Below are positions 1,586 through 14,125 of a stretch of 64,000 nucleotides of DNA, piece by piece; the stretch's first letter is position 1; every line of letters begins with the position of its first letter. Location: positions 1 to 64,000 of the forward strand of contig CT868016.1 of NCBI GenBank assembly GCA_000165425.1. Direction: 5' to 3'. Below the pieces are notes generated by a model. The model searched no databases, was not told where the DNA came from, and saw only the letters and a list, made by a program, of their open reading frames with translations. Both the position numbers and the translations under genes were made by a program. Source of the DNA: Paramecium tetraurelia (taxonomy: Eukaryota).

Positions 1586-4500
1586 TCAAATACTCAAAAT
1601 GCCTGATTTTATTGGTTGTAAACTGACTTAAAGTAAGACTGGCCTACAATATTTTTATAATTGTTGATAGACATCTATAGTTAATGTTGAAATAAGAATT
1701 AAAGTAAAGCCACTTACATTAATCCAACCAATTATTTCAGCTGGTTCTTGATCTTAATTAGATTTGATATTTTCATTCACAGCAAAGACTAAAGTATTTA
1801 GCATAATCAGTATTTCTGATATAAATAACTNNNNNNNNNNNNNNNNNNNNNNNNNNNNNNNNNNNNNNNNNNNNNNNNNNNNNNNNNNNNNNNNNNNNNN
1901 NNNNNNNNNNNNNNNNNNNNNNNNNNNNNNNNNNNNNNNNNNNNNNNNNNNNTTTAAAAATCCCTTCCACTAAGAGATGAAAAAAGATTTGGTTTACTCC
2001 CATTTTTATTACTTAAAAATTAAAAAAAAGGAAGCTTAAAGTAAAAAAATTACAAATTAAGGCAACTAAATGTTATAAGAAAATAATTATATTAAAAGTG
2101 AATCTAAATTGGAATTAACCACCTAAAACAGGGATGCAAAGGTGAATTCATAAAAATTCGATGAATAAATTCTTATTAATCCAGAGTAAATAAAATATGA
2201 ATATTATTTTCTCGCCAATTTCTAAAAGGAAAAAATTATTTTGGTCACTTTAAAGAAGAATTCTGGATAATAATTATAAAATATGGCTGGCCAATTCTCA
2301 TACTTAATATGTGGAAGAAATTAATAAAACAAATAAGAAAGTACAAAATAAGCACATCCTACTGCAATGACAGAGAGTAGAGTTTATAAGTTTAACAAAA
2401 AGTAACAATTAATAGAATAGTATTCGAATTTCCATTTGGCAGGTATAATTGGAACTTCGAAGTCAAAAATATTTTGGAAAAGTTAATCTGTTTACAAAAA
2501 TTGGATTATTGGAGTAAATGAGCCGATTGTAAATATTTCAAAATAGATTATTAAGTTTTCTGGGAATATTACATTGTGGTATTTCATAAATGATAATTAT
2601 TGGAGCATATCAAGAAGATTCCACAAAATTTCTAAATTGCCAAACAAAAAAGCAATTACACTTACAATCAAGATGATATACATAACAATTCTTCCTATAA
2701 GGGCAGTTTTTTCAATAATAAATTATTGATCCTTTGACAATTTGTTTGGAGATTTTAATGATAATATTACTTCATTGGAGTATAAAGTGTTATCTTGCAG
2801 ATTTACAATATTACCACACTTAATTGTTACCTTCAAAACAGGATTCTCGATTTTTGTTTTAAAATAAACTATTATTTTATAAGCTACGTCATTCAATTCT
2901 TTAGAAATAGAGATCATTGGTCTAACTTCAACTTCATATTAGCTATCTTTAGCTTTTTCAAGAACAACTATAATCATTTGTAGAAATTGTTCTTCACTAA
3001 TTTCTGTAACATTCAATCGTACCTATTCTGAAAATGATAATTTGTATTCTTGATAATCTGAGTTTGATTTGGAAAGTTTATTAAGTATAATCTTAGGTAG
3101 AATAATGTAATTGCAAACACTAATGTTATTTTCTTAACGGCATTTCCAATTCATTTCAACTTTACAAGTATCACTACACCCATCATTATTTTGTAGATTT
3201 CCATCATCACATGCTTCTAACTCTTAAATTAAATATCCGTCCCCACAAACATTATGACATTATGATCCATTTTCTAAGTATCCTTTTTAACATTCTACAC
3301 ACAACCCTTAGAAGCAGTTAATACATTACTTATGACATGAGTAGGAACATTAATAGCATCCATCAAATTCAATATTATTTCCATCATCACAAAATTCCTT
3401 TCCTACTGGGTACCCATCTCCACATATAGAAATGCAAACTCCATCTGATAATAGCCACCCTTTCTTATAACAATCTTAACATATTGGACCATTGCAAAGA
3501 TTACATCCTTATTGACATTGTATTTGGCATTTATAACAACCATCATAAGGTAAATAATTGCCATCATCACATTATTCTTCCATGCTAGATATAATGCCAT
3601 CTCCACAGAAATCAATACATGAATTGGAAAAGCATTCACCTAGATATTCATCCCAAATACATTCTCCATTTTCACTATCTGAATAGCAAGCCTCTTTGAT
3701 TGTGTAATCTGAACAATTTTACTTTTTTGTGCAACCTCCCTCTAACTTAACTGTGCAATAGGGTAAATATGAATTGCATTCCAAATAATTAGTAAGTGAA
3801 ACTGATGCAGTTTAACAAGTTTTGGTATAACATTTGTCATCTATCCAAACACAAGGATTTAGATTGATATCAAAGGTACAGCCATCAATAATATTAACAT
3901 CTTCACAAGCATTTCTTAAAATACATTAATATCCATTAGTAACACATCTCTTATCTTCAAAAATTTAAGCACACGCTGAATCTATAGCGTATTAGTAATC
4001 AAAGCACCCTTTTATACGGCAACCCTCCTTTCTAACAAGTAGAAAGGAATCCTATACACTCTAAATGAGATTAGGCAAGTGCAGGTCCATTTTCACATAT
4101 CCTTTCTAAACAAGTACTTTTCTCCTCATGCCAAAAACAATAGACTCCACCTAAGTTTTTTTGCCCATCACTCTTACATTATTATTAAGTGTAATTCATA
4201 CATAATGATTAACCAATTTCGCATCCATCTAAATAAGCATTTACAGTGCATGAATCACCAAAATACTATTGACAACTATGTGCTGTATATAAAATCAATT
4301 ATGCAGTAGAACATTTCTTGATATTACAACTATTTAGATTGATTAACCAATCACATTCTACGTTATTTTTATCAATTACACATTGTTCTTGGATTAAATA
4401 ATTACTACAGTCATCCAAATATTGGCATCCCTTTAAATTTATATTAACTGTGCAAGAATTTATTCGCTAATTACATTTTTCATAAGTAGTATAAGTGTCT

Positions 4501-7500
4501 TCTAAATTTAAACAGGTTAAATTAACACACTGATTTAATGATGTTTAAAAGTAACATTCATTTCCAAATTTATCTATGTAAACATTGAGTTTATTTTGCT
4601 AAAGAACAAGAAATTGGAAGGTCTACACATTGAATTAGATCAAGTTTGACAGTACAACTTTTATTTAAAGAAGACGATTCGCATTATTTATGGGTATTAT
4701 AAGTGATATCTGCTTAAGTGCAATCTTCTACACATAAATGATTGTTACTATCCCATTAACAATTAGCAAGCCAGTTATTGCAGTCTGTTTTTGATAATGA
4801 GGATGTAGTTTTATTTGAACAAGTCTTTTCTGTGCATTATGTACTATTCCAAAAGCAAGGAATTCCTTAAGAATTACTATTAGTATCACACAAAAGGCTA
4901 CTTGAATAATTGATACAAGGACCAATAGTTATGCAAGTTGATCCATCCCAAATGCATTTGACAGAAAAGATATTACAGTTACTACTTGTTGTTAAATCTG
5001 AGCAATTTAAGAGTTGGCATCCCTGCCCAGATGATGACATACAATATGAACGCCAGCGAGCACAAGAAGAATTATAATTGGAAATATTATGAATGTATGA
5101 AGCTTCACAAATATTGATACAAACAGTTGCATTCCAATAACAGTCTATCCCATCAATCGTAATTACACATGCTTCTTCATAAGTATACTCTGAACATAAT
5201 TATTTCTTCACTGTGCATTTTGTAGTCAATGAAAGATAAATTGTCTAGAGTACACTTACTTCATTGCAATCTTTATGTGATTNNNNNNNNNNNNNNNNNN
5301 NNNNNNNNNNNNNNNNNNNNNNNNNNNNNNNNNNNNNAGTATTTAGAATTAGAACATTTAGTAGAATAGATGGGACACCAATAACATTGTGTAGATACTT
5401 CCCAATAATAAGCATAACTATTCTGGCATCCAGATTGTGTAGTATACTCATAACAATATTTGGGATAGCATGAAGAATTGTACCATTTACAATTTGATCC
5501 ATCAATAAGTTTTGTTTGAGTACACACAACAGAGTTAGTAATGTGTTTACAATCCATAAAGGAGCAACCTTGGCCTTTAGTGTAATTTAATCTGCAATAT
5601 TGGGCATTTATTAATAAGCATTCACGATTCGAGACTGCATTGGTGTTGAGTTGACAATCAAGATAATTTACGCATTTACCAGCTTGCCAAAAACAAGAAT
5701 AATATTAGCATTGATAAATTAATTTTATTTAGGTACAATCTCCAGAGTAAGTTTTACAACTAGTACCGTCAAAAACGCAATCATATTTCCAACCATAACA
5801 TCCTTTATCAGAGGTAGCATTTTTAATATGCTCACATTTTCTGTTCTCACAAGTGCTAGTAGAGGAATTATATCCACATCTTTGAATAATCTAGCTTGAT
5901 TGGGCTATTGATGCGTTGCAAAGTGAAGCAGCACCTGAAAAAAGATTGCAGGAAGTCAATAAGACACAGCAATTACAATTTGTATCATATATATAGGTTG
6001 AGGAATAGTCTTAACATTATTATCTTTTCTGTGAAAGAGTCGTAGATGAAGTAAAGTTCATAGTTTTTTGCGCTATTTATCCGATGCATTAATATTTACA
6101 AATTCCAGAGCAAGACTATACATACTAACATAGTTGTCCTAATCGTGTTTTTTAGCCATCACAATTACTCTTAGAGAGAAGCTTATCAGAACAAATCGTA
6201 TCTCTTCGACATATGTCAGAATAGTTACACACTTAATCACTTTGCATTATTGCACTGTTACAAACTTAATTTGTCAAATCTGAACAAGTTTTAGTAGAAT
6301 AACATCCTTATCCACTCGATTATAACACACAACTTTTATTATATAATTGACAGAGCTCATTACTTTTACTATCAGTAACAAACTCACATTAATAGTTTTG
6401 TACAACCTAGCATTAAGAATCAAAATAATAACATCTTTCATTACTTAATGTAACAGTTAATTTACATATAACTGGATTTGTAATATACTCACAATAGGCT
6501 GGTCTAGTTTCACATCCTGGTCCAAATGTTCCTTTGGAACTAATTTTCAATTGACAATAATTAAATTTCTTGAATCTAAAACATTCAGCTTCGGTTGTTG
6601 CAGTTGTATTATCTGTGCAAACTACTTCCTTACATAGTTAATTTTAGTCATCCCACTTACAAGGCTACTAAAATATAGTGATTTAGCATTGTTATTTATA
6701 TTTATAATCGCAAATATAGGAAAGATCTGAGCAATATCTATCAATACTATTTAAAGTGCATTTGGGCAGGAAGTTTTCACAATCCTCATGTGATAATTCT
6801 CCATAGATTCTCTTATGACAATCCACTTACCCATTATTATCATCATCCTCATTTTTACAATTTTATTCTGCATCATCCCAATAACAATACTATCCATTCA
6901 AATTCGTTCTGCAATTCCTTTGTCTGATAAATTGATTACAATTTTGCTTCTTTTGTTCGCATCCTTCAGCTGTAAAGGAAGGAGTAACAGTGCATTAATG
7001 ATTCCATGCAAAACATTCTTAATGAGTTTTATACATGTTATTGTTAGGCGAAGATGTGCAAGCAACTGAATTAGGCCTGACTTTACATCCCCCTAGAGTA
7101 TGATCAAAAATGCAATAATCCAGCCAAGTATTACATTCAACATTATTGGTATAATCAATTTTAGAAGCATCTGAGCATTCAGATATTTTACAATAACTGT
7201 TATTCCAAAAACATCTGGTTCCATTTTATAGATTCAATTCACATTATTGTTAACTTAACATTAGATTACAATCAGTCGGCCATTATTAGCATCCTTCTCC
7301 AGTAGGTCCAATTATGCAAGAACCTAAAAAGACTTTAAATGATTCGCAAATTTCATTAGTTTTATATTAATTAGGATTTGCATCTGTACAGACTTAATCA
7401 AGACAGATTTAATTAATTTAATCCCATTTGCACTAAAATCCTGAAAGTGTAGAATAGCATTGATCTTCAAGAGCATGTGAACAAATATTCATTTTTTCTA

Positions 7501-9052
7501 CACATCCAATCAGAATTTTTTAGTTGTTTGATAACATTTAAACATTAACTGTGCATATCGGCAACCATGATTCACATTTCTAATTAGTATCATATTGCGG
7601 TGGAGCACTTTTACATTTCTTCTCTATACATCCTTGATTCAATATGCAAACAGTGCCACTTGAATCAATAGTGCAATACTCGATTTCTAGAATATTCTCA
7701 CATAGATAATCTGTACAACCCAAAGAATCGATATTAAAAGTGCAAAATTCACTTGCCTATTAGCATATATCATGACTCTTGTAAGTTGGTAATTACAATT
7801 TATTACATTCTAATAATAAGCAGCTTCCTTCTAACCAAACACAACTTTCTTTATTATAATTGAATTCACAAAATTATTATTCTAGAATCTCATCACATAA
7901 TTAAGGTGTTGCATTACATCCACCATTTAATTTCCCTATGCAATTTCCATATGTCTTACAATCTGTATGGTCATAATAAATTGGTGCATGATAACATTAT
8001 CTTTATTCGCATCTATTGTTGTACCATTTGCAATCCTATAATTCTACAGAATAACAATCCATTTCTCTAACATAACCATCACATAATTCGGGTCTTATTT
8101 TACATCCTCCGTTTTCAGAAGTAACGCAATCTAATAAATTATCATAATTCTAGCATTATTGATAATTTGTAAGAGTATTAGGAGCAGTGCTACAACTCTT
8201 GATTTTACATTCATTTTAATGATACTCGCATTTCCTACCTTAAACATCAGTAACACAGCCAAATTTATTTTAAGCATCACTACATTACCTCCTTATTACA
8301 CAATGAACTCCATTTGATGTACAATCACTTAACTATGATTTACACTCAAAATCTTAAGAAAATGGAAGATTCTCACAAACTTTTTCAACACACATACTAC
8401 TTTTTTTATCCCAAAAGCAATTTTCTTATCTTTACTTACTTTCAAAACATTAAAACTCTTTATAATAGTAATTACACGATTCCAATTACTCAATGCATCC
8501 ATAACCTTTCTCACTTACAGTGCAGACACCTAAACCTTCTTTACACATTTTATGACTGATCAAATATGTTGGCAATTCTTCACAAATTACAACATCTCTG
8601 CATTTTTTCTCTATATCCTAAACCCAAAAACAGTACTTACCATTTTTATTTTTATTTTGGCATCCATTCTCTGTCTTATAATCTTTACAATCTAATATTT
8701 GAACACACTTTATGCCATCAAACACACATTTATATGAAGATTCTTAACAATAATCTTTATTAAAAATGCTACAATCTGTAAAGTTTATGCATTAACCAAA
8801 ATGAAAACCACATGATTTTTACTCTCTGCAATCTTCTTTTGCGAAATTTTTGCATGAATTCTAATTTTAAATTTACATATTGTATGTTTGACCTGGGCAT
8901 ATTTTACATTAATTTATGTCCCAAAAGCAAATACCTGATTTTTAACATTCAAATTAACTTTTAACATGCCCACAAACACATTTAGAGATTTCCGAACTTC
9001 CTAATGATAGAAGGTAGAAGAACAAAAGATAACAGAATAAATGAAATTTCAT
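1586..9052 (-). CDS. Giant cysteine-rich surface protein (~2,490 aa): signal peptide, surface-antigen-like Cys repeats, three CGDG..CDDGN..DGC repeats, C-terminal multi-pass membrane domain
   Basis: Starts MKFHLFCYLLFFYLLSLGSSEISKCVCGH; periodic C-x-W/CTV repeats; CGDGIISSMEEQCDDGNYLPYDGC etc. at ~3130-3620; hydrophobic helices ~1650-2700; TGA at 1586. Spans two N-gaps and has apparent 1-nt insertions at ~4581 and ~4024. Confidence 0.85.
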
Positions 9053-10499
9053 TTAATTTTATATAATCTCATGAAGAATCAAATTAATATGATTTCTATG
9101 CCTCATAAGGAACAATTACTTTTACCTCTTATTGAAGTTAGAGATTTAAATTATAAGAATAAGACTATTTAATTTTATCATATTTTAAACTTAAGTAAAA
9201 TTTAATTCAAGAAAATCTTCCTTCCTCATGAAAACTATCTTCAAAAACTTTTACATAGTATTCTTTATTCTTAGAATTATTATTACAGCAAAGAAACACA
9301 GTTAAATTAAATTAGATATTGTCTATTATAATTAGTCTAGATTTTCATGTTTAAATTTAAATATTTTCATTTTCTACATAAATCTATTCAGAAAAGAACC
9401 TTCATCAATATTTCTGATCGAAGTTAAATTTAAGATTAAATTTCAATTAGAAATTCTAAAAATTAAGGTTCTTAAAATCTAAAATGAGATTATTAAGTTT
9501 AATTTATATTTTACTTAGAACAAATTGTAGCGATATTTTACTACAATCTAAATTAAAAATAGCTTTTATATCAATTTAGAAAATCAGCAACATAGCTTAA
9601 TCAAAACTAAACTATTTGTAGTTATTTATTTGATAATGATTTAGACATTAATAACTAGATAGCTTTAAGATGAGATACACTTGTTTTTTTCATAGAACAT
9701 CCAACTAAATCGAAAATATAACATGTATTTAGCAGAATTCTAATCATTATAGCAATACATGAGGTCGGCAATCTATTTCTTAACCTAGAAAAATTTTATT
9801 ATGATTCAAAATTTTCTACCATTTGGTGAAATATTATTGATTTAAATATGAAAATTTACGATATTGAACAATTTTCCTTGTATTTTAGATGAAAATTGAA
9901 AACAGAAAAGTAAAAATAAATAAAACTTTTATATATCATTATAATATAATAAGAATAGTCAAGAGTCAATTTTATAAATATTTGTTAATTTAAGGTGATA
10001 AATGTATATTTTCTTTCCATTTAAGAAAGTTAAATTTTGAATTCAAATTTTAATCTAGGATGATAAAATTTGTATTAAATTAAATTAAAATTACTAGCCT
10101 TTCAGCAAAAAAGATTAATTTATATAAATATTTTGATAAGCTAATAATAAATTAATAATTAATTAATATTTTATGTATACCAATATTTGAAGAATATGCT
10201 TTATCTCTAAAATCCTAAAAGGAGTTATTTAATTTGAGGACAGCAAATGATTTTGAAAACATTTGTTCATTATTGCAAATTCATTCAAATAGGTAAATAA
10301 AACAAGTTTTTATCGATATCGATTTTGTTTGGGATTCATGTCAAAAATTGCCTTGGGGGATGTTCAATATGTGAATCAATAAATGATATGGAAGCAATTT
10401 GCATTGATTTTCAAAATATTCTAGCTTTCTTAATGGCCTGAGCAGAATGTGTGGTCAATATTGTGAATTTTGTGAAAGCTAATTATAATGAATAATTTG

Positions 10500-10545
10500 G
10501 ATTCAATTATTTAAGGTGCATTAAATGCATAGATCCCTCAAAGCA
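10500..10545. repeat. 46-bp sequence duplicated at 11236-11281 (contig overlap across the N-gap)
   Basis: gattcaattatttaaggtgcattaaatgcatagatccctcaaagca occurs identically before the gap and directly after the telomere tract. Confidence 0.95.
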
Positions 10546-11171
10546 NNNNNNNNNNNNNNNNNNNNNNNNNNNNNNNNNNNNNNNNNNNNNNNNNNNNNNN
10601 NNNNNNNNNNNNNNNNNNNNNNNNNNNNNNNNNNNNNNNNNNNNNNNNNNNNNNNNNNNNNNNNNNNNNNNNNNNNNNNNNNNNNNNNNNNNNNNNNNNN
10701 NNNNNNNNNNNNNNNNNNNNNNNNNNNNNNNNNNNNNNNNNNNNNNNNNNNNNNNNNNNNNNNNNNNNNNNNNNNNNNNNNNNNNNNNNNNNNNNNNNNN
10801 NNNNNNNNNNNNNNNNNNNNNNNNNNNNNNNNNNNNNNNNNNNNNNNNNNNNNNNNNNNNNNNNNNNNNNNNNNNNNNNNNNNNNNNNNNNNNNNNNNNN
10901 NNNNNNNNNNNNNNNNNNNNNNNNNNNNNNNNNNNNNNNNNNNNNNNNNNNNNNNNNNNNNNNNNNNNNNNNNNNNNNNNNNNNNNNNNNNNNNNNNNNN
11001 NNNNNNNNNNNNNNNNNNNNNNNNNNNNNNNNNNNNNNNNNNNNNNNNNNNNNNNNNNNNNNNNNNNNNNNNNNNNNNNNNNNNNNNNNNNNNNNNNNNN
11101 NNNNNNNNNNNNNNNNNNNNNNNNGTGCGCTCGCGAGAGTGTTAATGAAGGCTGGCCAGTCCATGGTATCT

Positions 11172-11235
11172 CCCAAACCCAAACCCAAACCCAACCCCAA
11201 CCCCAAACCCAAACCCAAACCCAAACCCCAAACCC
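11172..11235 (-). repeat. Paramecium telomeric repeat tract (C3A3/C4A2 on +; G-rich strand is -), marking a left chromosome end
   Basis: cccaaacccaaacccaaacccaaccccaaccccaaacccaaacccaaacccaaaccccaaaccc joined directly to unique sequence. Confidence 0.95.
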
Positions 11236-12556
11236 GATTCAATTATTTAAGGTGCATTAAATGCATAGATCCCTCAAAGCATTTAATTTCATTCCAAATT
11301 TTGTCCATGCTTTTAAACTTTAAGAGATGATATAACAATAAATTTATTTGAGGCATGCTTTCCGCTACAATATTATCAAAGTAGAATAGCAACTTTATGG
11401 GCAGACTGTGATGCATCTTATGTTTGAGTTTTTAAACTAACTATTTGTTAAGAACAGTGTAAATTAAGATTGTAAAGACAGTAATGGATAACTTAACAAA
11501 GATGATTAATCTTGAAATCTATTCTAATCTTAAGTTCATTATGATATAGAATAACTTGATTGAACAATTATAGGAAGATTAAGTAGTCAGTTGTGATTAT
11601 TTTTTCAAGTGGGCCATATGTTGAATAAAATTATCTATTAATTTATAATTAGAGTTAAAAGTATTCGAATTATATGTTAACTGTTATATCTATTGATTTC
11701 AGTTTAAAATCGAATGCAATAAGATACTAAGACTTAAGATTTAATTATTCTTTACTTCTTAATAATCGAATATTTTGGATAAAAATACAAAATTCTTGCC
11801 CTTTAAAAACTGAGAAATGCATTTTATCTGAGCAGAAATTATTGAATATGATGTTAATTAATTATTTTTCAATTATAGTGTACTACTTTTTAATTATAAT
11901 TTTCAAGTGGATTAATAATGCCTAAAATGCTGTTGGTAGTCCTCTTTAAACTACCTCCTATTCCTTAGATTGCTTTTATAGATGAAATTTATGTTCTAAT
12001 TGTTGTTGATTTGAACAACTTATAAATAAAATATGCTAGAGTGATCTGGTAGATAATATTACAACAACAACTACTATTTTCATCTACATCAATTTTCAAC
12101 CAAAAATAATCAATTAACTCATTGAACTTATTTCTTCTAGAACTATTTCTGGATTCGCATGGATTCAAGCAAATGTTTCTTAATGATATAATACTTCAAT
12201 GCATATGAGATGGATGTTCGAGTTTGTCTGCCACTAATTGTCTTAATACTAATCATTATTCTTTGTCATTTTNNNNNNNNNNNNNNNNNNNNNNNNNNNN
12301 NNNNNNNNNNNNNNNNNNNNNNNNNNNNNAGTATGAAGTGCAGGCTTATTTTTGGGAATTCATTAAAATATCCGAAAAGAATTGATTATTCTCTCATTTG
12401 TTGAATATGAAGATACTCTATGAAAGTTCTGACAATTTGTAAACGTTATGCAAAAGAGCAGGACAATTAGATGATATACAAACATAAAATGAGATGAGAT
12501 ACAAAACATTTGATATCAACTAAAATAGTAGCATACTAAAAGCAATTATAATATTT

Positions 12557-14125
12557 TCATTAATTTTATAATTCATAAACTGAATATCCTTTTGTATGGA
12601 AATCCCAAAAAACCAAATATTCTCCATTATCTGTCATTGTTCCATAAATATCTGAAGTATTGCAATTCAATTAATCTAATTTTTAAAACTACCCTTTTTA
12701 ATTTTCTCTAATTAAATATATATATGATTTATGTCGAACTACTATAAAATTCCTTTTCTCATTGTAAATTATTGGAAAGAAATATTCATCATAATCCTGA
12801 TAATTTGTAGCTAATTGAATTGTTTTACTTATGTTCTCCTAATAAACACCTTCTCTTTCTTCAAAATTATAAATCATGTTTATTCCTTAATCACCGGTTG
12901 TCCAAATAAATGAATTCTCGCTTATAAATCCAACTTTGAATCCTACATAATTAACTGATTATTTAACAAAATATTTAAATTCATACTTACCGTTTTTCTT
13001 TTTTTCCCAAATAATAATCTAATTCTTCTATTAAGCACATGATACTAATGAATTTTCTGATTTATTTAAACTTAATGAAATAACGTAATTTTTATGTTTA
13101 TCCAATGAATACAGATATTATAATTCATTCTTATCAAAATCAACTTTCCATACTTTTATTGAATAATCACTACCACCAGAAAAGAGTAGATCTTCATTCG
13201 AATTCATTATAATACACATAACCCAATCAATATGTTATTTATAAGGTTATGAACTAATCCATTCATTCTAGTTCAATTGTTTCCAACATCGTATTGTTTT
13301 GTCTCCAGCACCAGAAACAAATGAATTTTATTTCTTACTGTAACATAAACATTAAACCCAATTGCTATGTCCTTGCAAGGTCTATAATAACTCAAATTAT
13401 CCTTTTGTAAAGCTCCAAACATTTATATTCTGATATTCACTTGATATCATTATAGATCCAGATGAATTAAATGATATTGAATTACATTTTATACTTTATT
13501 TAGCAGATTACTAAATTAACTTGAATTTGATTTCATCTTCTAATGAATCTTTCTAATTTAGAATTTTCTTGAATTTCAGTCTTAATTCTCTAAATGAAAG
13601 CAAACCTTTATTTTCATTATATTAATTCAAGTTATTATATAACTTAGTCATCCAACTTCTATTAATAGTCTTAATTTTTTCTGTATTAGCAGCCTCACTA
13701 TTATTTTCTTTTTTAATATAATCATCCAATTCATCATAGAAGCTGTATTTATAGAATTTTTGCATCTATAATAATAATTCATCGCTCCAACCCTCTGCTA
13801 TTCCTATAAGGGAGTCAAAAAGATCCATAAATTACTACTTTAATTTTTGTGTAGAGTTGATACTTGATTATAACTATTGAACAGTTTTCATTGTTTGGTT
13901 TTCCAATTCCTTTATTTATGTTTCATATTTCTCCTCAATATTTTGAATGACTCTATGAATCCCGATAATCGTATATTCAGAATCTGAATATTCCATACAT
14001 AATCCACATAAAAATCTTTGTGTTTTTGTTAACTTTGGATCAAGTACAACTGAGCATATAGGTTAGTTGTGTTTGAATTAGCAATGGAACTCTGACTAAT
14101 TTTCTATAATAGTTAGTTTATTCAT
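12557..14125 (-). CDS. WD40-repeat protein with N-terminal CxxxH..CxxC motif and coiled coil (522 aa)
   Basis: MNKLTIIENQSEFHCQFKHNQPICSVVLDPKLTKTQRFLCGLC...; GHSNWVQCL, SGAGDKTIRCW, SGGSDYSIKVW; ends GTMTDNGEYLVFWD..YELQNQ*; length 3n. Confidence 0.9.

What the first reader, a model, noticed from the sequence alone, without database searches (positions are those of the whole stretch)
10500..11281. Captured alternative chromosome-fragmentation / de novo telomere-addition site
Seen: a 64-bp telomere tract joins unique DNA at 11236, and the next 46 bp match 10500-10545, where the same DNA instead continues leftward. The ~580-N gap is therefore probably false, and two molecular forms coexist: one continuous, one healed by telomerase exactly at GG|ATTC. 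Known: Paramecium macronuclear development fragments chromosomes imprecisely, often where germline repeats are eliminated. Inference: this marks a facultative breakage region, possibly beside a germline-limited element.
Basis: partly seen in the sequence, partly recalled or inferred. Interest (0 to 1): 0.75.

Follow-up and report, generated by a model that had tools for sequence, protein, structure and literature searches.

The report
Telomere-capped contig end at false gap
A Paramecium somatic-chromosome scaffold was stitched across a point where one cloned copy ends in a telomere and another reads straight through, which is a well-documented kind of chromosome-end variability that here also produced a spurious assembly gap.

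Summary
The 46 nt at 10500-10545 recur exactly at 11236-11281.

Both ends of the duplicate coincide with technical boundaries: the telomere junction and the contig end. So the two contigs cover the same locus in two forms, and the gap is a scaffolding artefact. Positions 10546-11281 (736 nt) are redundant or foreign.

The site lies in a gene-free spacer of about 2.8 kb, between a giant surface-antigen-family gene and a WD40 gene of a Paramecium aurelia-complex macronuclear genome.

The best reading is a telomere addition site of a heterogeneous or alternative macronuclear chromosome end, made during programmed DNA elimination. Healing of a vegetative break is the main rival. No reads or germline sequence were available, so how common the capped form is, and whether eliminated DNA lies next to it, stay untested.

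The phenomenon is in print, including internal telomere sites at assembly gaps of this genome. It is ordinary and already known.

The parts
1586..9052 (-). Giant cysteine-rich surface-antigen-family gene. Its ATG is at 9052-9050. It continues leftward through ORF pieces and two N gaps. The left limit is approximate.
   Evidence: PF01508 Paramecium surface antigen domain, E 2.7e-57, 10 stretches, on 5338-9055. ORF pieces 5261-9442, 4558-5955, 3999-5207 and 1586-4195. ATG checked. The joining of the pieces was read by eye and is not a gene model.
9053..10499 (.). Left part of the gene-free spacer. It is present only in the read-through form, 21.3% GC.
   Evidence: GC. Two stop-to-stop ORFs here (9601-10101, 9868-10374) have no Pfam family at E<=0.01.
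10499..10500 (.). Telomere addition point in read-through coordinates. The capped molecule keeps G10500 and everything to its right.
   Evidence: The match starts at 10500/11236 with no leftward extension. G-strand view...TTGAATC|GGGTTTGGGG....
10500..10545 (+). Last 46 nt of the left contig, from the read-through copy.
   Evidence: 46/46 identity to 11236-11281.
10546..11124 (.). 579-N scaffold gap, judged spurious because the contigs overlap.
   Evidence: The implied true offset is -157 nt, against +579 in the scaffold.
11125..11171 (+). 47-nt leader outside the telomere. Its composition is not Paramecium-like. It is probably vector, adaptor or poor read-start sequence, but it was not identified.
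   Evidence: 55.3% GC, reached by 0 of 62,846 other windows. It holds NruI, MscI and NcoI sites. No meaningful match in plasmids, E. coli genomes, phages, bacterial/archaeal contigs (34-nt exact scan) or Rfam.
11172..11235 (+). Telomere, C-rich strand: 64 nt mixing C3A3 and C4A2 units.
11236..11281 (+). First 46 nt of chromosomal DNA in the capped form. It duplicates 10500-10545.
11282..12556 (.). Right part of the spacer. It holds a further 57-N gap at 12273-12329.
   Evidence: ORFs 11376-12095 and 11239-11698 have no Pfam family. The 239-aa ORF has no protein relative at E<=0.001 among 167 candidates, with lengths 131-419 searched only.
12557..14125 (-). WD40-repeat gene. Its TGA stop is at 12559-12557, 1321 nt from the junction.
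   Evidence: PF00400 E 2.4e-19. 49 proteins at E<=1e-20. Of these, 47 are named Paramecium species, one is the window's own unnamed record and one is an unnamed ENA record.

Best explanation
The window comes from a macronuclear (somatic) scaffold of a Paramecium aurelia-complex species, most likely P. tetraurelia.

The right-hand contig begins with a cloned natural chromosome end. It holds 47 nt of non-native sequence, left over from cloning or from the start of a read. Next come 64 nt of telomere, then unique DNA from G10500 rightward. The left-hand contig reads through the same point by 46 nt.

The assembler could not merge the two, because 111 nt do not match and the overlap is short. The scaffolder then placed them side by side with an estimated gap. 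So the 579 N stand for no missing DNA, and 10546-11281 is redundant or foreign.

Biologically the site is one telomere addition point within a heterogeneous or alternative chromosome end. [quoted passage not shown] Other copies keep the DNA joined.

Shown: the sequence arrangement and the telomere's orientation. Inferred: that capped molecules are frequent here, that the origin is developmental, and that eliminated germline DNA lies nearby.
For: The duplicate is exact, and both its edges are technical boundaries. The other 3 gaps show no such overlap.

The telomere tract has the Paramecium make-up: 7 G3T3, 2 G4T2 and one heptamer. That mix is given as the macronuclear telomere in PMC13085455 (passages) and PMC9808624 (methods passage). 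The C-strand runs 5'->3' into the unique DNA, so the telomere belongs to the right-hand DNA.

The leader outside the telomere is foreign in composition.

The chromosomal 3' end ...GAATC has no G/T-rich primer. [quoted passage not shown]

The site sits in a spacer of about 2.8 kb with no detectable gene, 1448 nt upstream of a surface-antigen-family gene. Telomeric sites are reported to lie often near such genes (PMC4235209 section 8).

All 4 N gaps of the window fall in its first 12.3 kb (P about 0.0014 if placed uniformly). The left contig crosses the site by only 46 nt. Both facts suggest thin read-through coverage.

[quoted passage not shown] Chromosome ends spread over 10 kb or more, with internal telomere sites often at assembly gaps. 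By my count of a PDF-derived table, 13 of 36 listed additional sites are flagged as at or near gaps.
Against: No reads were available, so the cap may rest on a single clone.

Only one junction position is seen, whereas a telomere addition region should show many.

No reciprocal G-rich cap exists on the left-hand DNA.

The leader could not be identified as any vector.

The scaffolder's +579 estimate differs by 736 nt from the overlap I infer.

Two of the four gaps lie inside a repeat-rich gene, and that alone could explain them.

The scaffold could not be matched to the published table of telomere sites.
Confidence: 0.65

Rival explanations
1. The cap is genuine but not developmental. A random double-strand break in the vegetative macronucleus was healed by telomerase (a neotelomere), and one such rare molecule happened to be cloned.
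For: Paramecium keeps telomerase active in vegetative growth and heals breaks with new telomeres at seemingly random positions, without a motif (PMC13076228 sections 4, 21, 24). Only one junction position is seen here.
Against: In young clones telomere reads map predominantly to chromosome termini, which suggests that any single internal neotelomere is rare. A single rare read in a normally covered region should not stop two contigs from merging. Here the read-through contig crosses by only 46 nt, and gaps cluster around the site. The position, in a long spacer next to a surface-antigen-family gene, fits the reported developmental sites. All of this is indirect.
Confidence: 0.2
2. Cloning or assembly chimera. 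A short piece carrying telomere repeats was ligated in vitro to a sheared fragment that happened to start at 10500, so no capped molecule exists in the cell.
For: The 47-nt leader is unidentified, so the clone's structure is not fully explained. The tract is short, at 64 nt.
Against: The repeat orientation is the one expected if the telomere belongs to the right-hand DNA. A telomere belonging to the leader side would read G-rich here. A 64-nt tract is what shearing inside a longer telomere would leave (inference). The leader's composition looks like linker or vector sequence rather than a second Paramecium fragment.
Confidence: 0.08
3. The scaffold is correct as written. All molecules carry a real insert of about 700 bp holding an interstitial telomere-like tract, flanked by 46-nt direct repeats.
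For: The scaffolder estimated a positive gap of 579.
Against: A real duplication would need its left edge to fall exactly at the telomere junction and its right edge exactly at a contig end. The leader's composition occurs nowhere else in 64 kb. No other repeat structure is present.
Confidence: 0.03

Closest known systems
Internal or alternative telomere sites at assembly gaps of the P. tetraurelia macronuclear reference (Subtle-seq study, PMC13076228, section 22 and Supplementary Table S2)
   Same: Telomere junctions lie inside scaffolds, many just beyond 10 kb from a scaffold end, and many at or near runs of N. The authors conclude that the sites reflect the true chromosome architecture.
   Different: Those sites were mapped from enriched telomere reads. 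Here the cap itself has been assembled into the scaffold, with a foreign leader. I could not tell whether this site is one of theirs, because the scaffold was not matched.
Telomeric sites from minority telomere reads near surface-antigen genes (PMC4235209)
   Same: The same genome project and the same kind of evidence: a read with CCC[CA]AA repeats followed by unique DNA. The site adjoins a gene with PF01508 domains.
   Different: Their definition needs at least 4 telomeric reads within 2 kb, which is not testable here. Here the cap belongs to the molecule that extends away from the antigen-family gene, and the gene's 5' end faces the break.
[quoted passage not shown] 2003; Forney and Blackburn 1988). 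Known to me only through citations in PMC9808624, PMC5405496 and PMC13085455 and from recall. The papers themselves were not held.
   Same: Capped and joined versions of the same locus, with no conserved breakage sequence.
   Different: The defining link to a transposon or minisatellite in the germline is untested here. No minisatellite or other repeat is seen in the retained DNA.
Tetrahymena chromosome breakage sequence (Cbs) system
   Same: Developmental breakage followed by de novo telomere addition.
   Different: No Cbs-like 15-mer lies near the site. The 7 three-mismatch matches in the window are at chance level (mean 4.1 in shuffles), and the nearest is more than 5 kb away. The motif was typed from recall. 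PMC13085455 and PMC13076228 state that Paramecium fragmentation is not Cbs-driven.
Ageing-associated neotelomeres in Paramecium (PMC13076228)
   Same: Telomerase healing of a break without template pairing.
   Different: Those events are seemingly random in position and accumulate with clonal age. This site's context suggests a frequently used end, but that is an inference.

Membership tests
Paramecium macronuclear telomere junction | At least three consecutive G4T2 or G3T3 repeats, mixed (criterion in PMC9808624 methods; repeat mix in PMC13085455) | tested here: met
   7 G3T3, 2 G4T2 and 1 heptamer in 64 nt.
Paramecium macronuclear telomere junction | Similarity to the read-through sequence stops exactly where the repeat starts | tested here: met
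   The 46/46 match starts at 10500/11236 with no leftward extension.
Paramecium macronuclear telomere junction | The repeat is oriented so that the G-rich strand runs 5'->3' toward the end of the molecule carrying the unique DNA | tested here: met
   G strand...TTGAATC|GGGTTTGGGG....
Paramecium macronuclear telomere junction | Nothing native lies beyond the repeat (a true terminus) | tested here: inconclusive
   The 47 nt beyond it are foreign in composition, but they were not identified as vector or adaptor.
Telomeric site / telomere addition region (PMC4235209 definition) | At least 4 telomeric reads within 2 kb, at variable positions | not testable with these tools
   No read data. The assembled sequence shows only one junction.
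[quoted passage not shown] | Germline-limited repeated DNA (transposon, minisatellite) at or next to the site in the micronuclear genome | not testable with these tools
   No ciliate germline collection is available. The retained flanks show no repeats.
[quoted passage not shown] | Capped and joined versions of the same locus coexist | tested here: met
   Both versions are present in the scaffold. Their frequencies are unknown.
Cbs-directed breakage (Tetrahymena type) | A conserved 15-nt breakage sequence at the break | tested here: not met
   No match with 3 or fewer mismatches within 5 kb, and window-wide matches are at chance level. This is a weak test: the motif was recalled, and by recall it is eliminated from macronuclear DNA in Tetrahymena.
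Spurious scaffold gap (overlapping contig ends) | The sequence at the end of one contig recurs at the start of the next, bounded by technical edges | tested here: met
   1 of the window's 4 gaps shows it.

The most novel reading that the evidence does not exclude
The site could be the captured edge of a regulated, epigenetically set alternative fragmentation. That fragmentation would separate the giant surface-antigen-family gene (ATG 1.45 kb away) from the rest of the chromosome in a sizeable share of macronuclear copies. The gene would then sit on its own short subtelomeric chromosome, or its dosage would fall. [quoted passage not shown]
Probability: 0.1. Interest if true: 0.45.

Novelty: already known. 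Interest (0 to 1): 0.15.

Why it matters
This is mainly a matter of assembly hygiene. Positions 10546-11281 (736 nt) should not be read as genome. They consist of 579 N that stand for nothing, 47 nt of foreign sequence, a telomere that is terminal rather than internal, and a 46-nt duplicate.

For biology, the site adds one base-exact telomere addition point, in a long spacer beside a surface-antigen-family gene. The class of event, the absence of a motif, and the link with assembly gaps are all already described for this genome.

Tried and rejected
**Identity of the 47-nt leader**
- blastn against plasmids gave 5 records, none covering 80% or more, best E 0.8.
- blastn against E. coli genomes gave no match.
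- blastn against phages gave one 18-nt match at E 3.
- An exact 34-nt scan of bacterial/archaeal contigs gave 0 loci.
- Rfam at E<=1 gave 0 matches in 9000-12600.
- None of these collections holds cloning vectors as such, so 'vector' remains an inference. From memory, the leader loosely resembles the polylinker/adaptor region of plasmids used for shotgun libraries, but this was not tested.

**Genes in the spacer**
- 4 of 4 stop-to-stop ORFs had no Pfam family.
- The longest ORF had no relative at E<=0.001 in the one length band searched.
- A crude ORF-cover scan made 9849-12559 the longest stretch without an ORF of 250 aa or more. That stretch includes the 736 artefactual nt.

**Structured RNA or tRNA in the window**
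- None found.

**Matching the scaffold to published telomere maps**
- The contig length (270,377) is absent from Supplementary Table S2 of PMC13076228, which uses a newer reference. I did not pursue this further.

**Papers not held**
- Duret et al. 2008, Le Mouel et al. 2003 and the 2023 review by Betermier et al..

**Not available**
- Reads, a micronuclear assembly, and any ciliate DNA collection.

Full report
**What is in the sequence**

The window has an N run at 10546-11124, 579 N. To its right come three parts:
- 47 nt at 11125-11171;
- a 64-nt tract at 11172-11235 of C-rich telomere-type repeats;
- unique DNA whose first 46 nt (11236-11281) are identical, 46 of 46, to the last 46 nt before the gap (10500-10545).

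The match does not extend leftward: position 10499 is G and 11235 is C. With up to three mismatches the 46-mer occurs only at these two places, and none of 100 shuffles gave a match.

The repeat tract is the only tandem repeat scoring 80 or more in the 64 kb. It is also the only run of two or more telomere-like units on either strand.

It is 55.3% GC in a window averaging 27%. None of 62,846 other N-free 47-nt windows reaches that value (maximum 53.2%). It holds three CpG against 6.9 per kb overall, and it contains NruI, MscI and NcoI sites.

**Organism and surroundings**

The gene at 12557-14125 (minus strand) encodes a WD40 protein. A protein search returned 49 proteins at E<=1e-20. Of these, 47 are named as Paramecium aurelia-complex species, one is the window's own unnamed record (on a contig of 270,377 nt), and one is an unnamed ENA record.

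The closest named relative is from P. octaurelia, at 78% identity. The hits labelled P. tetraurelia reach only about 51% and look like paralogues. From this and the style of the assembly I infer P. tetraurelia. The sister relation to P. octaurelia is recalled, not tested.

The repeat tract reads as CCC followed by 7 AAACCC, 2 AACCCC and 1 AAACCCC. This is the G3T3/G4T2 mixture described for Paramecium macronuclear telomeres (PMC13085455 and PMC9808624, passages).

To the left, a giant cysteine-rich gene starts at ATG 9052 on the minus strand and runs down to about 1586. It has ten stretches of the Paramecium surface-antigen domain PF01508 (E 2.7e-57).

The junction lies 1448 nt upstream of that ATG and 1321 nt downstream of the WD40 stop codon. 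The spacer has 2768 nt of unique sequence. I found no gene in it:
- 4 of 4 spacer ORFs have no Pfam family;
- the longest ORF has no relative in the length band searched;
- there is no RNA family or tRNA.

**Why the gap is false**

A real duplication would have edges of its own. Here the left edge of the duplicate is the telomere junction and the right edge is the end of a contig. The simplest reading is that the same locus was sequenced in two forms.

The right contig starts with a capped clone, and the left contig reads through by 46 nt. The 111 non-matching nt and the short overlap kept the assembler from merging the contigs. The scaffolder then set them side by side with an estimated distance.

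The true offset would be -157 nt rather than +579. None of the other three gaps in the window has overlapping flanks.

**Why the cap is probably genuine**

The C-rich strand runs 5'->3' into the unique DNA. On the G strand the chromosome ends ...TTGAATC and continues GGGTTTGGGG.... This is the orientation of a telomere that belongs to the right-hand DNA. A telomere belonging to the leader side would read G-rich at this position.

What lies beyond the repeat is foreign in composition, as expected for vector, adaptor or a poorly called read start. I could not identify it:
- plasmids gave only chance-level partial matches;
- E. coli genomes gave nothing;
- phages gave one 18-nt match at E 3;
- an exact 34-nt scan of bacterial and archaeal contigs gave nothing.

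None of these collections holds cloning vectors as such, so this point stays open. A tract of 64 nt is what random shearing inside a longer telomere would leave (inference).

**Mechanism**

By the literature I could read, Paramecium removes at least a quarter of its germline DNA imprecisely during macronuclear development. [quoted passage not shown] There is no Tetrahymena-type breakage sequence (PMC13085455 and PMC13076228).

In line with this, no Cbs-like 15-mer lies near the site. Matches across the window are at chance level (the motif was recalled).

The chromosomal 3' end has no G/T-rich primer. [quoted passage not shown]

I therefore read the site as one telomere addition point of a heterogeneous or alternative chromosome end. 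Three indirect signs suggest that read-through molecules are the thinner class here:
- the read-through contig crosses the site by only 46 nt;
- a second small gap lies 1 kb to the right;
- all four gaps of the window fall in its first 12.3 kb (P about 0.0014 if placed uniformly).

Two of those gaps lie inside a repeat-rich gene, which weakens the third sign.

**Rivals**

- *Vegetative break healing (about 0.2).* Telomerase stays active in vegetative growth, and ageing clones accumulate neotelomeres at seemingly random places (PMC13076228 sections 4 and 21). Against it, a single rare read would not normally stop two well-covered contigs from merging.
- *Cloning chimera (about 0.08).* This is disfavoured by the repeat orientation.
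- *A real insert of about 700 bp with an interstitial repeat (about 0.03).* This would need two coincidences of boundaries.

None of these can be settled without reads.

**Comparison with what is known**

The phenomenon is in print for this genome.

[quoted passage not shown] It maps telomere-bearing reads onto the scaffolds and finds telomeric sites often close to surface-antigen genes.

PMC13076228 (section 22) reports the following:
- chromosome ends spread over up to 10 kb or more;
- there are internal telomere sites 'barely outside' that range;
- assembly gaps lie at or near many of the sites.

In its Supplementary Table S2 I count 36 additional sites on the 188 scaffolds, 13 of them flagged as at or near gaps. 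The table was read from PDF text, so the count may be slightly off.

I could not match the window's scaffold to that table. The contig length is absent from it, because the table uses a newer reference. The founding papers (Forney and Blackburn 1988; Le Mouel et al. 2003; Duret et al. 2008) were not held. I cite them only through the papers above and from recall.

**Verdict**

The finding is an instance of a known feature of Paramecium macronuclear chromosomes, combined with an assembly artefact.

What remains open is the frequency of the capped form, whether its origin is developmental or vegetative, whether germline-limited DNA adjoins the site, and what the 47-nt leader is.

The most novel reading still allowed is that a regulated alternative fragmentation sets the neighbouring antigen-family gene apart on its own subtelomeric molecule. 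I put that at about 0.1.

Noticed in passing
window 1586-9052 (minus strand): A very large cysteine-rich gene with ten PF01508 surface-antigen domain stretches. By eye, its C-terminal part (ORF 1586-4195) looks like a multi-pass membrane region rather than a GPI-anchor signal. The gene holds two of the window's four N gaps (1831-1952, 5283-5337). PMC4235209 mentions antigen-family members with transmembrane regions instead of a GPI anchor.
   Followed up: partly
window 1831-1952, 5283-5337, 10546-11124, 12273-12329: All four N gaps of the 64-kb window lie in its first 12.3 kb (P about 0.0014 if placed uniformly). This may mean thinner read coverage left of and around the telomere site, or it may only reflect repeats in the big gene.
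   Followed up: partly
window 12557-14125 (minus strand): This WD40 gene belongs to a large family in which every named relative is a Paramecium protein (47 of the 49 proteins). PMC13085455 mentions a 126-nt minisatellite resembling a WD40 repeat that was first found through its association with macronuclear telomeres. I did not examine whether this gene family relates to that satellite.
   Followed up: no
window 11125-11171: A foreign 47-nt leader (55% GC, with NruI, MscI and NcoI sites) is embedded in the scaffold. It is probable vector or adaptor contamination that escaped screening, but it is unidentified.
   Followed up: yes
window 11172-11235: One of the ten telomere units is a heptamer (AAACCCC). 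This is either a natural variant or a base-calling slip near the start of a read.
   Followed up: no
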